A stretch of DNA of 64,000 nt from an uncultured cyanobacterium (GTDB lineage Bacteria > Cyanobacteriota > Cyanobacteriia > CAKZMO01), in contig CAVRCJ010000001.1 in assembly GCA_963719515.1 (NCBI GenBank), positions 128,001 through 192,000 of the forward strand, written 5' to 3'. The notes beneath the pieces are model-generated. The model searched no databases, was not told where the DNA came from, and saw only the letters and a list, made by a program, of their open reading frames with translations. This document shows positions 53,205 to 54,322 of this stretch, piece after piece (the stretch's first letter is position 1; every line of letters begins with the position of its first letter). A program made the position numbers and the translations under genes.

Positions 53205-53992
53205 GTCGGGTAAAGAGGTGACATCGCTGCCACCCCCTCCCCTCAGAACCGTGCTTGCGACTCTCACCGCACACGGCTCAAGCAGACCATAGCTAAAGGG
53301 GACAAGCGTGGATTTGTTGGTGGCAATAGAGATGAAGCAACTCTAGGTTATCGAAGGTGTTCTGACCACCACGCGCTTTAGGAATGCGGGGGTGGAGTTC
53401 GAGAGCCTCCCCATTGAATAGAGAGTCTCCGCACACAGAACACCGGCCGTTCTGCCGTTGCGCAGTGCGCTGACGGGTAGGTTTCAGCTGACTAGCTTTT
53501 AGCGACTAGACGAGAAGCCCCGCGCTCTACCCGTCTAGGGTGAGCGTCGGGATGAGAGTCGCGCTAGCCGAAGTGCGCCCGCAAAATGATGCACAGCGGA
53601 TAGTGCGCTCAGCGCTGAGGCTAGCAGTTGGTATGATAGAGATAGCAAGGTGATACACCCCGCAAAGAGTGTGACGGGCCCGTAGGCGAAAGCTGCAAGT
53701 CACCCGTTCCTCAGTTTGCAAATGTATCTGCGACACATAGTGCGTATCCTCCCTCGCGGAGATGAAAATTCAAAACTCTGCCGTGGGGCATCAGGCGGAG
53801 TATAAACCTATCTCAGGATATGTCTCGGCAATAGCTGGGAGTCACTGAGGAAGCCCGCGCTGTACAGCTTGCTGTCAGCGTCGGGAGGGTGTCACGGCTT
53901 GTCGCTGTTGCCAATAGGCCTTGAGCGCCGGGTCATCCATCGAGGCGGAGCCTTTGGCAATGGTGTGGCGTTCAATTGTGAACCAAGAGAAA
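53205..53992 (-). mobile_element. 5'-truncated group II intron (tail of RT/maturase ORF with HNH domain, domains V and VI), interrupted by an IS605-derived element
   Basis: Domain V GAGCCGTGTGCGGTGAGAGTCGCAAGCACGGTTC (53246-53279, minus); DVI ending TTTACCCGAC at 53205; coding remnant FSWFTIERHTIAKGSASMDDPALKAYWQQRQA|LKASQLKP...CSVCGDSLFNGE...NLELLHLYCHQQIH, stop at 53293-53295. Confidence 0.9.
53503..53895 (+). mobile_element. Non-autonomous IS200/IS605-family derivative (393 bp, no transposase), probably carrying an omegaRNA scaffold
   Basis: Two related subterminal hairpins CCCGCGCT...AGCGTCGGG (53519-53551, 53854-53885); right end TCAC; inserted 3' of TTTAG with no TSD; excision restores the intron reading frame. 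Confidence 0.82.
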
Positions 53993-54043
53993 GGGACGGC
54001 CAGCTTTTTGGGGCTTTTCTGCCCAATACATCAGAGAAAACCC

Positions 54044-54322
54044 ATGACATTTCTATATCCCGAGCGGCCTTCCAGCGAGGCCGCACCCACCGTGCTGACC
54101 ACTCCCCAGCCCGGCCCCAACGACGAATACATCCGCCACCTGCTGATCGGCTCCCCCGAAGCCATCCGCGAAACCATCCATCTGCTGCATCTGCGCGACT
54201 ACGTCGAACAGGGCCTGTGGAGCGGACCCATCGCCATTGGCGACGGCGGCGTCAAGATCACTCACCGAGAAGGGCAGGCCCTAGCCTACCTGATGCGGCG
54301 GCGGTCTTTAGATATCTCGTAG
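54044..54322 (+). CDS. Small cyanobacterial hypothetical protein (92 aa; RHLLIGSP..I..LH..Y...WS type)
   Basis: ATG after an A-rich leader; motif recalled from multi-copy small cyanobacterial proteins of unknown function. Confidence 0.7.
   Translation: MTFLYPERPSSEAAPTVLTTPQPGPNDEYIRHLLIGSPEAIRETIHLLHLRDYVEQGLWSGPIAIGDGGVKITHREGQALAYLMRRRSLDIS

What the first reader, a model, noticed from the sequence alone, without database searches (positions are those of the whole stretch)
53503..53915. ORF-less IS605 derivative that may express an omegaRNA whose guide matches a group II intron
Seen: a 393-bp insert with two related hairpins, preceded by AAGC (53515-53518) and GAAG (53850-53853). It is flanked on the left by TTTAG, ends in TCAC, has no target duplication, and its removal restores the host frame (YWQQRQA|LKASQLKP). 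An extended -10 (TGgTATGAT, 53629-53637) lies inside. It is followed by frameshifted words resembling a tnpB 3' end (YTPQ/EC, ILPR-G-DENS, AVGH). Established: in IS608, guide tetranucleotides 5' of the end hairpins pair with the cleavage sites (AAAG/TTAC, GAAT/TCAA), and AAGC/TTAG and GAAG/TCAC fit the same pattern. TnpB omegaRNAs overlap the tnpB 3' end and right end and take their guide from the flank. Inference: this element lost both proteins but kept its ends, a promoter and the RNA scaffold. Its ~250-nt RNA would end in guide GGCTTGTCGCTGTTGCCAAT. With a TnpB supplied in trans, it would target TTTAG+guide, which is the uninterrupted intron ORF. That would be an RNA-guided element able to cut, or home into, intact copies of another mobile element. 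The left junction could be shifted by a codon.
Basis: partly seen in the sequence, partly recalled or inferred. Interest (0 to 1): 0.88.

Follow-up and report, generated by a model that had tools for sequence, protein, structure and literature searches.

The report
Gene-less IS605 mini-transposon in intron remnant
The 393-base insert is one of 53 near-identical copies of a protein-less offshoot of a TnpA/TnpB jumping gene that still carries the part that encodes the nuclease's guide RNA; this is a known kind of element, and its guide matches a group II intron only because it landed in a dead piece of one.

Summary
Observation confirmed. Window 53503-53895 is an exact insert. The genome holds 53 copies at about 99% identity, all preceded by TTAG (47 of 53 by TTTAG), all ending in GTCAC, with no target duplication. 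A same-genus genome carries the uninterrupted site, ...TTTAG|GGCTTGTCGC..., inside an intact 556-aa intron reverse transcriptase gene.

It is a PATE, a non-autonomous IS200/IS605 derivative. The same ends and the same TTAG flank bound 19 resident elements of 1.45-1.8 kb that carry tnpB (one more is split by a 4-kb insertion). Three of these also carry an open Y1 tnpA.

The insert keeps the last ~37 codons of a tnpB plus the right end (141 nt). This covers the ~110 nt that the tnpB-bearing relatives conserve even at synonymous sites, and three stem-loops are maintained by compensatory changes. An extended -10 motif upstream survives in variants from three species. A trans-acting omegaRNA is therefore plausible, but expression is untested.

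The intron angle is incidental. The host is a 5'-truncated, single-copy intron remnant. The guide occurs once in this genome, and none of the 72 elements has a TTAG+12-nt target elsewhere.

PATEs that encode omegaRNAs used in trans are already in print (Meers et al. 2023). This is a new member of a known kind.

The parts
53498..53502 (+). Target / transposon-adjacent motif TTTAG (left cleavage site TTAG, cut after 53502)
   Evidence: TTAG in 53 of 53 mini-element copies and 17 of 17 tnpB-bearing copies examined. T at -5 in 47 of 53 and 15 of 17.
53503..53895 (+). The PATE (protein-less IS200/IS605 derivative), 393 bp. This copy has two private variants: an extra T at element position 32, and G instead of A at position 387.
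   Evidence: 53 copies at about 99% identity with identical boundaries. Empty site in G004.
53503..53571 (+). Left end, homologous to the left end of the resident tnpB elements
   Evidence: Element positions 3-69 are 91% identical to the 1483-bp element, and positions 4-61 are 95% identical to the tnpA+tnpB element.
53515..53518 (+). Left DNA guide tetranucleotide AAGC, directly 5' of the left hairpin foot
   Evidence: Read from sequence and fold. Its position matches the IS608 rule in PMC3201880.
53519..53551 (+). Left imperfect palindrome (TnpA-binding hairpin) with a bulged T
   Evidence: DNA fold, z -2.63.
53629..53637 (+). Extended -10-like motif TGGTATGAT (inferred promoter, start near 53644)
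   Evidence: Present. Kept as TGCTATACT in G002 and TGGTATAAT in G004. Not found by the two-hexamer scan. The pattern alone is expected 0.75 times per window.
53572..53754 (+). Interior of unknown origin (element positions 70-252). If the promoter is real, it includes a ~110-135 nt leader.
   Evidence: No significant similarity to tnpB or the IS interior. No Pfam hit in three frames. Found only in 3 of 5 genomes of the genus among 401 class genomes. The leader alone folds no better than shuffles, z -0.83.
53735..53848 (+). Remnant of the last ~37 codons of a tnpB, including its stop codon
   Evidence: tblastn with the resident TnpB: residues 364-398, 51% identity, pairwise E 3e-7.
53755..53895 (+). 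Segment homologous to the 3' end and right end of tnpB-bearing relatives: the inferred omegaRNA scaffold, with three stem-loops
   Evidence: blastn 71-79% identity to 11 related elements. RNAalifold stems with compensatory changes. The last 60 nt of tnpB in the relatives are conserved at third codon positions, 0.84 against 0.49-0.55 further upstream.
53850..53853 (+). Right DNA guide tetranucleotide GAAG, directly 5' of the right hairpin foot
   Evidence: Sequence and fold.
53854..53885 (+). Right imperfect palindrome with a bulged T
   Evidence: DNA fold. Covariation across 18 related right ends.
53892..53895 (+). Right cleavage site TCAC, ending 10 nt 3' of the hairpin foot
   Evidence: Invariant GTCAC end in 53 of 53 copies and in 21 related elements. 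IS608 has the same 10-nt distance.
53896..53915 (+). 3' flank that would serve as the omegaRNA guide (GGCTTGTCGCTGTTGCCAAT)
   Evidence: Occurs once in the own genome. Matches exactly next to TTTAG in G004 L053:290-309.
53205..53502 (-). Group II intron remnant, 3' part: end of the RT ORF with HNH domain, and domains V/VI
   Evidence: Rfam Intron_gpII, 64 bits, at 53205-53281. Translation. 99% identical to G004 L053:1-289.
53896..53991 (-). Group II intron remnant, upstream part of the RT ORF; homology to the full intron stops at 53991
   Evidence: 99% identical to G004 L053:290-385. Stop codon and unrelated sequence lie upstream. There are no other RT matches in the genome.

Best explanation
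The insert is a PATE: a palindrome-associated, protein-less derivative of an IS200/IS605-family insertion sequence.

Shown. It belongs to a 53-copy family that inserts 3' of TTAG without duplication. It shares its ends with 19 resident tnpB elements, three of which also carry an open Y1 tnpA gene. It inserted precisely into the RT/HNH reading frame of what is now a 5'-truncated group II intron remnant.

Inferred mobility. TnpA from the autonomous copies excises and inserts the top strand as single-stranded DNA. It recognises the two bulged hairpins and pairs AAGC with TTAG, and GAAG with TCAC.

Inferred RNA. The element transcribes an RNA from its own extended -10 promoter near 53629-53637. 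The last ~115-140 nt of that RNA are the family's omegaRNA scaffold, and it runs 16-20 nt into the flank. Resident TnpB (14 intact 398-aa genes) loads this RNA in trans and cuts the TTTAG+flank 'donor joint' whenever the element is excised. Repair from a sister chromosome copy then restores the element.

The intron match. The guide matches a group II intron only because that is the local flank. This genome has no target for it.
For: Copy number, boundaries and TTAG flank.

Parents with the same ends and flank.

TnpA: Pfam Y1_Tnp about 140 bits, with open frames inside three of those elements.

TnpB:
- Pfam OrfB_IS605, Cas12f1-like_TNB and HTH_OrfB_IS605.
- PDB ISDra2 TnpB at E 3e-43, with GVDVG, AHEKLN and CRDHNAA in the printed alignment.
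- 14 of 16 unfragmented copies have an intact frame.

Empty site in a congener.

Geometry matches IS608 as described in PMC3201880 passages:
- a guide tetranucleotide lies 5' of each hairpin foot;
- right cleavage is 10 nt 3' of the foot, the same distance here;
- left cleavage is 19 nt 5' of the foot in IS608 and 16 nt here.

Scaffold:
- 141 nt are homologous to the 3' ends of 11 tnpB elements.
- The last 37 tnpB codons are recognisable.
- The hairpin upstream of the stop codon keeps its loop, while its stem changes from AGGGCT/AGCCCT to CTCTGCC/GGCGGAG.
- 13 of 52 alifold pairs show double changes.
- Synonymous-site conservation in the last 60 nt of tnpB marks the constrained region, and the insert retains all of it.

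The -10 motif is kept in three species' variants.

None of the 72 elements has TTAG+12 nt of its guide elsewhere in the genome.

The concept is stated in Meers et al. 2023 (PMC10055086, discussion passage).
Against: - No expression data: no RNA run was listed.
- The two-hexamer promoter scan finds nothing on the + strand inside the insert.
- The -10 pattern alone is expected 0.75 times per window, and its conservation rests on three sequences.
- The scaffold is only 79% identical to that of the resident TnpB elements, so cross-recognition is assumed.
- The 53 copies are so alike that they say nothing about selection on the RNA.
- The compensatory changes could have arisen in a tnpB-bearing ancestor, and the right hairpin is needed as DNA by TnpA in any case.
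- About 110-135 nt between the motif and the scaffold have no recognisable origin or structure.
- Rfam has no model that hits either the insert or its tnpB-bearing relatives, so no curated family test was possible.
Confidence: 0.55

Rival explanations
1. It is the same PATE, mobilised by TnpA in trans, but the RNA part is dead. The retained tnpB tail is only what the deletion happened to leave next to the right end. No functional omegaRNA is made or used, and the family spread purely by TnpA-driven peel-and-paste.
For: TnpA needs only the ends, and tnpB is dispensable for transposition (PMC10055086 introduction passage). No promoter was found by the two-hexamer scan. The interior is unrecognisable and the leader is unstructured. 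The scaffold is 21% diverged from that of the resident TnpB elements. No RNA evidence is available.
Against: The element keeps 141 nt at the right but only ~69 nt at the left. The retained right part spans exactly the region under non-coding constraint in tnpB-bearing relatives. All three stems are intact. A TGnTAnnnT motif sits upstream in all three species' variants, while the 50 nt before it diverged by 25% in G004.
Confidence: 0.35
2. One reading: the copy acts as an RNA-guided weapon or homing device against intact copies of the group II intron. It would cut them, or copy itself into them, so one mobile element preys on another.
For: An intact intron ORF with TTTAG plus an exact 20-nt match exists in a same-genus genome, 99% identical to the remnant. 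Intact TnpB genes are present.
Against: In this genome the guide occurs once, and the remnant is the only group II intron RT sequence. The site was found in 1 of 4 other genomes of the genus. Any insertion into any repeat would give the same appearance. None of the 72 elements has a second target. MGE-in-MGE nesting is common (PMC3119063 passage).
Confidence: 0.07
3. It is not a mobile element: a chance pair of hairpins, or an assembly artefact.
For: None found.
Against: 53 identical-boundary copies on 16 contigs, an empty site in a relative, and parents with transposase genes.
Confidence: 0.01

Closest known systems
PATEs (palindrome-associated transposable elements) of IS200/IS605: defined in Haloquadratum walsbyi (Dyall-Smith et al. 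2011, PMC3119063, table passage read) and seen as PATE-like elements in Geobacillus stearothermophilus (Meers et al. 2023, PMC10055086, passages read)
   Same: No terminal inverted repeats, subterminal palindromes, no target duplication, and too short for a transposase. The ends are shared with tnpB/tnpA elements of the same genome. Meers et al. state that PATEs 'often encode omegaRNAs' that need TnpB in trans.
   Different: A cyanobacterial family with a TTAG/TTTAG target, 53 copies against 19 protein-coding relatives. Its interior of ~180 nt has no recognisable origin, and it has a candidate promoter of its own. I found no published description of this family, but I searched only for the general concept.
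IS608 (Helicobacter pylori) and ISDra2 (Deinococcus radiodurans), the studied IS200/IS605 elements
   Same: Bulged subterminal hairpins. A 4-nt DNA guide 5' of each hairpin foot that matches the cleavage site. Right cleavage 10 nt 3' of the foot. Insertion 3' of a tetranucleotide. A Y1 TnpA. A TnpB related to ISDra2 TnpB (E 3e-43).
   Different: The target is TTAG rather than TTAC (IS608) or TTGAT (ISDra2; recalled). The left cleavage site is 16 nt from the foot, not 19 nt. tnpA is divergent from tnpB. This copy has no genes at all.
IStrons / CdiIStron (Zedaveinyte et al. 2023 preprint, 10.1101/2023.11.20.567912; abstract and two passages seen)
   Same: An IS605-family element and a self-splicing intron occupy the same DNA, and PATE versions exist.
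   Different: In IStrons a group I intron is part of the transposon and competes with the omegaRNA. Here an unrelated group II intron remnant is simply the insertion site, on the opposite strand.

Membership tests
PATE (Dyall-Smith et al. 2011 definition) | No terminal inverted repeats | tested here: met
   The ends CGACTAGAC... and ...GGGTGTCAC are not inverted copies of each other. The two end hairpins are direct repeats.
PATE (Dyall-Smith et al. 2011 definition) | Palindromes close to both termini | tested here: met
   Hairpins at 53519-53551 and 53854-53885.
PATE (Dyall-Smith et al. 2011 definition) | No target duplication | tested here: met
   The 53 flank pairs are unrelated. The empty site shows no gain or loss of bases.
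PATE (Dyall-Smith et al. 2011 definition) | Too short to encode a transposase | tested here: met
   393 bp. No Pfam hit in the three forward frames. The only ORF of 40 aa or more lying wholly inside the insert is a 69-aa reverse-strand frame, which was not scanned against Pfam.
IS200/IS605 family (non-autonomous member) | Ends shared with elements that encode a Y1 (HUH) TnpA in the same genome | tested here: met
   Three elements of 1780-1801 bp have the same ends and Y1_Tnp hits of about 140 bits with open frames.
IS200/IS605 family (non-autonomous member) | Sequence-specific insertion 3' of a short motif that is also the left cleavage site | tested here: met
   TTAG in 53 of 53 and 17 of 17.
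IS200/IS605 family (non-autonomous member) | Guide tetranucleotides 5' of the hairpin feet that fit the cleavage sites | tested here: inconclusive
AAGC/TTAG and GAAG/TCAC sit where IS608 has AAAG/TTAC and its right pair. The pairing pattern fits by analogy.
IS200/IS605 family (non-autonomous member) | Actual mobilisation by TnpA | not testable with these tools
   Only indirect evidence: 53 copies at about 99% identity, and a filled versus empty site between congeners.
TnpB omegaRNA | Encoded on the top strand across the tnpB 3' end and right end, abutting the flank | tested here: met
   Homology of 53755-53895 to that region in 11 tnpB elements, and a remnant of the last 37 codons.
TnpB omegaRNA | Conserved scaffold structure supported by covariation | tested here: inconclusive
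   Three stem-loops are shared with 8 close tnpB elements, and 13 of 52 pairs show double changes. With 18 more divergent ends, only the right hairpin is recovered. No curated Rfam model hits either the insert or its relatives.
TnpB omegaRNA | Transcribed, and bound by TnpB | not testable with these tools
   No RNA run was listed.
Group II intron (the host sequence) | Domain V/VI RNA and an RT-maturase-HNH ORF | tested here: met
   Rfam RF00029, 64 bits against a threshold of 40. ORF tail 97% identical to the G004 RT, which has RVT_1, RVT_N, GIIM and HNH.
Group II intron (the host sequence) | Complete element (domains I-IV, full ORF) | tested here: not met
   Homology to the full intron stops at 53991. 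Only RT residues ~442-556 are present, with a stop and unrelated DNA upstream.

The most novel reading that the evidence does not exclude
The 53 mini-elements may be self-promoted, mobile guide-RNA genes that outnumber and exploit the 14 intact TnpB genes. They would use the nuclease in trans to reinstate themselves after excision in a polyploid cyanobacterium. As a by-product, this copy would give the strain RNA-guided cleavage of an active group II intron that still circulates in the genus at 99% identity. That would be an accidental, CRISPR-like spacer against another mobile element.
Probability: 0.08. Interest if true: 0.6.

Novelty: new member of a known kind. Interest (0 to 1): 0.3.

Why it matters
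As it stands, this is a clean, well-bounded example of a known class, with several useful properties. The TAM (TTTAG) is defined by 72 insertion sites. A natural empty site is available. Autonomous, tnpB-only and gene-less forms sit side by side in one genome.

That makes it a convenient natural system for asking whether gene-less elements really borrow TnpB through their own guide RNAs. The idea is stated in the literature but, in the passages I read, only as an inference.

The proposed attack on a group II intron would have been new. The genome does not support it: there is nothing for the guide to hit.

Tried and rejected
RNA evidence. One search for RNA runs holding 53300-54100 listed none, so no reads could be laid.

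Rfam at E up to 1. Nothing was found in the insert. The mir-367 hit at 53899-53968 is below threshold and lies in the intron ORF. Nothing was found at the 3' ends of four tnpB-bearing relatives either. Rfam therefore has no usable model for this scaffold, and the blank says nothing.

Origin of the interior (element positions 70-252).
- No blastn similarity to the resident IS or to 25 related loci.
- No other relative in the genome.
- No Pfam hit in three frames read through stops as X.
- Local alignment to the upstream tnpB coding region scored z between -0.1 and 3.6 against shuffles.
- On this basis I dropped my by-eye alignment to the zinc-ribbon codons.

A structured leader domain. Earlier notes of this scan report such domains in other gene-less elements. 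Here the 136-nt leader alone folds no better than shuffles (z -0.83), and it is restricted to the genus.

A wide alignment of 18 right ends recovered only the terminal hairpin.

The two-hexamer promoter scan found no + strand site in the insert.

Nezha as a cyanobacterial precedent. The review passage I read (PMC3184786) describes it with terminal inverted repeats and direct repeats, so I do not use it.

The 92-aa neighbour ORF and the 60-aa ORF of the 1483-bp element gave no NCBIfam hit. The 92-aa ORF also gave no Pfam hit.

Full report
WHAT IS THERE

blastn against the window's own 5.28-Mb genome finds 53 copies of 391-393 bp at about 99% identity on 16 contigs.

All 53 are preceded by TTAG. 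T stands at -5 in 47 of 53, while positions -6 to -10 and +1 to +10 are unbiased. All begin C[G/T]ACTAGAC and end GTCAC, and no flank is duplicated.

The window's copy has two private changes: an extra T in the left hairpin loop, and G for A at element position 387.

As single-stranded DNA, each end folds into a 9-bp stem with one bulged T and a short upper stem, at 53519-53551 and 53854-53885. The two hairpins are direct repeats of each other.

EXACTNESS OF THE INSERTION

A same-genus genome (G004) has a 1,789-bp contig (L053) that matches window 53214-53502 and 53896-53991 at 99% with nothing in between. It reads agcTTTTAG|GGCTTGTCGCTGTTGCCAAT.

In that contig the site lies inside an open 556-aa ORF with RVT_N, RVT_1, GIIM and HNH domains.

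PARENTS

The left ~60-70 nt and the right ~116 nt of the insert match resident elements. Nineteen paired elements are listed:
- fourteen of 1483-1484 bp;
- one listed at 1448 bp, where my boundary was thrown off by a 35-nt gap in the left-end match;
- one of 1612 bp;
- three of 1780-1801 bp.

A further element is split by a ~4-kb insertion, and others are cut by contig ends. All 17 with a clean left junction follow TTAG, and all end GTCAC.

They encode a 398-aa TnpB:
- Pfam OrfB_IS605, Cas12f1-like_TNB and HTH_OrfB_IS605.
- ISDra2 TnpB structures at E 3e-43.
- The frame is intact in 14 of the 16 copies that gave one unbroken tblastn match. One more has a 7-aa in-frame loss and one has lost its stop. 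Two others are frameshifted.

The three longer elements also carry a divergent Y1 tnpA, with Y1_Tnp at about 140 bits and open frames.

I saw the ORF but found no NCBIfam hit for it.

FIT TO THE IS608 RULES

He et al. 2011 (PMC3201880, passages read) give these rules for IS608:
- cleavage 3' of TTAC, 19 nt 5' of the left hairpin foot;
- cleavage at TCAA, 10 nt 3' of the right foot;
- recognition by four bases 5' of each foot, with AAAG as the left guide.

Here the distances are 16 nt and 10 nt. The four bases are AAGC (for TTAG) and GAAG (for TCAC). At the left end the fourth position changes on both sides relative to IS608, C:G to G:C.

It does not occur in the text I read.

WHAT THE INSERT KEEPS OF THE RNA PART

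Homology:
- Element positions 278-393 align to the last 109 nt of the resident IS at 79%.
- Positions 253-393 align to the 3' ends of 11 related tnpB elements from other cyanobacteria at 71-79%.
- tblastn finds the last 37 codons of tnpB with the same stop.

Constraint in the relatives: in eight tnpB-bearing relatives, third codon positions are conserved at 0.84 in the last 60 nt of the gene, against 0.49-0.55 further upstream. This marks a non-coding constraint of about 110 nt up to the right end. The insert retains all of it.

Structure: that stretch forms three stem-loops in both the insert and the parent. RNAalifold on nine sequences keeps them, and 13 of 52 pairs show double changes. The first hairpin keeps its loop while its stem differs at four positions between the insert (CTCTGCC/GGCGGAG) and the resident IS (AGGGCT/AGCCCT).

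Caveats:
- These changes may predate the loss of tnpB.
- The terminal hairpin is needed by TnpA as DNA in any case.
- An 18-sequence alignment with more distant ends recovers only that hairpin.
- Rfam has no model for this scaffold.

PROMOTER AND INTERIOR

TGGTATGAT (53629-53637) is present. The bare pattern is expected 0.75 times per window, and the two-hexamer scan does not call it. The variants of the mini-element in G002 (94% identical) and G004 (86%) have TGCTATACT and TGGTATAAT at the same place, so TGnTAnnnT is kept.

Against G004, the 50 nt before the motif differ at 13 of 51 positions, and the 111 nt after it at 11 of 112.

Element positions 70-252 have no detectable relative outside the mini-element itself. 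They occur only in 3 of 5 genomes of the genus among 401 class genomes searched. The putative leader is not unusually structured.

THE INTRON

On the minus strand lie domains V/VI (Rfam RF00029, 64 bits, 53205-53281) and the last ~115 residues of the RT ORF, split by the insert. Homology to the full intron ends at 53991.

A protein search with the full G004 RT finds only these two pieces in the whole genome. The 20-nt guide occurs once. Its first 12 nt occur at two other places, neither preceded by TTAG. So this genome offers the presumed guide no target.

The same holds for all 72 elements: none has TTAG plus 12 nt of its 3' flank elsewhere. Among four other genomes of the genus, the uninterrupted site was found in one.

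MECHANISM AND STANDING

Shown:
- family membership;
- target motif;
- exact boundaries;
- availability of TnpA and TnpB genes;
- retention of the constrained 3' segment.

Inferred:
- mobilisation by TnpA in trans;
- transcription from the -10 motif;
- loading into TnpB;
- cleavage of the donor joint.

The last step is the model of Meers et al. 2023 (PMC10055086). [quoted passage not shown] The PATE definition of Dyall-Smith et al. 2011 (PMC3119063, table) is met on all four counts.

Earlier notes of this scan describe several such elements, including another gene-less family in this same genome (e1-7685781) and a nested TnpB insertion judged ordinary for the same reason (e1-7818933). I treat these as leads only.

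VERDICT

This is a real and very clean PATE of a cyanobacterial IS605-family element, probably still mobile and plausibly a source of trans-acting guide RNA. The link to the group II intron is an accident of where it landed. It is a new member of a known kind, of modest interest.

Noticed in passing
window 53983-54315 (+), ORF 54044-54322: A ~330-bp unit holding a 92-aa ORF (MTFLYPERPSS...) has about 20 paralogous loci in the genome at 72-82% nucleotide identity. It has no Pfam or NCBIfam hit. The unit begins where homology to the full group II intron stops (53991), so it may mark the event that truncated the intron.
   Followed up: partly
L060:451-633 (-) = G000:C3, inside the 1483-bp tnpB element: A 60-aa ORF divergent from tnpB sits where tnpA lies in the longer form. 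I saw the ORF but got no NCBIfam hit.
   Followed up: partly
G000:C16:66092-71602: One tnpB element of the family is split by about 4 kb of inserted DNA: tnpB residues 1-191 and 179-398 lie about 4 kb apart.
   Followed up: no
G000:C9:14570-16052 and G000:C10:705518-707000: Two tnpB elements have almost identical flanks on both sides. This points to a duplicated segment or an assembly repeat, not two independent insertions.
   Followed up: no
L053 (G004:C569, whole 1,789-bp contig): An intact group II intron RT ORF sits on a contig that starts inside intron domain VI. This suggests a multi-copy, recently active intron in that genome, 99% identical to the window's remnant.
   Followed up: partly
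window 53899-53968 (+): A sub-threshold Rfam mir-367 match (24 bits against 54) is caused by an inverted repeat, GCTGTTGCCAAT...TTTGGCAATGGTG, inside the intron ORF. It is most likely chance.
   Followed up: no
window 53534 and 53889: The window's copy alone carries an extra T in the left hairpin loop, and G instead of A six bases before the right end. Whether these affect TnpA recognition is unknown.
   Followed up: no
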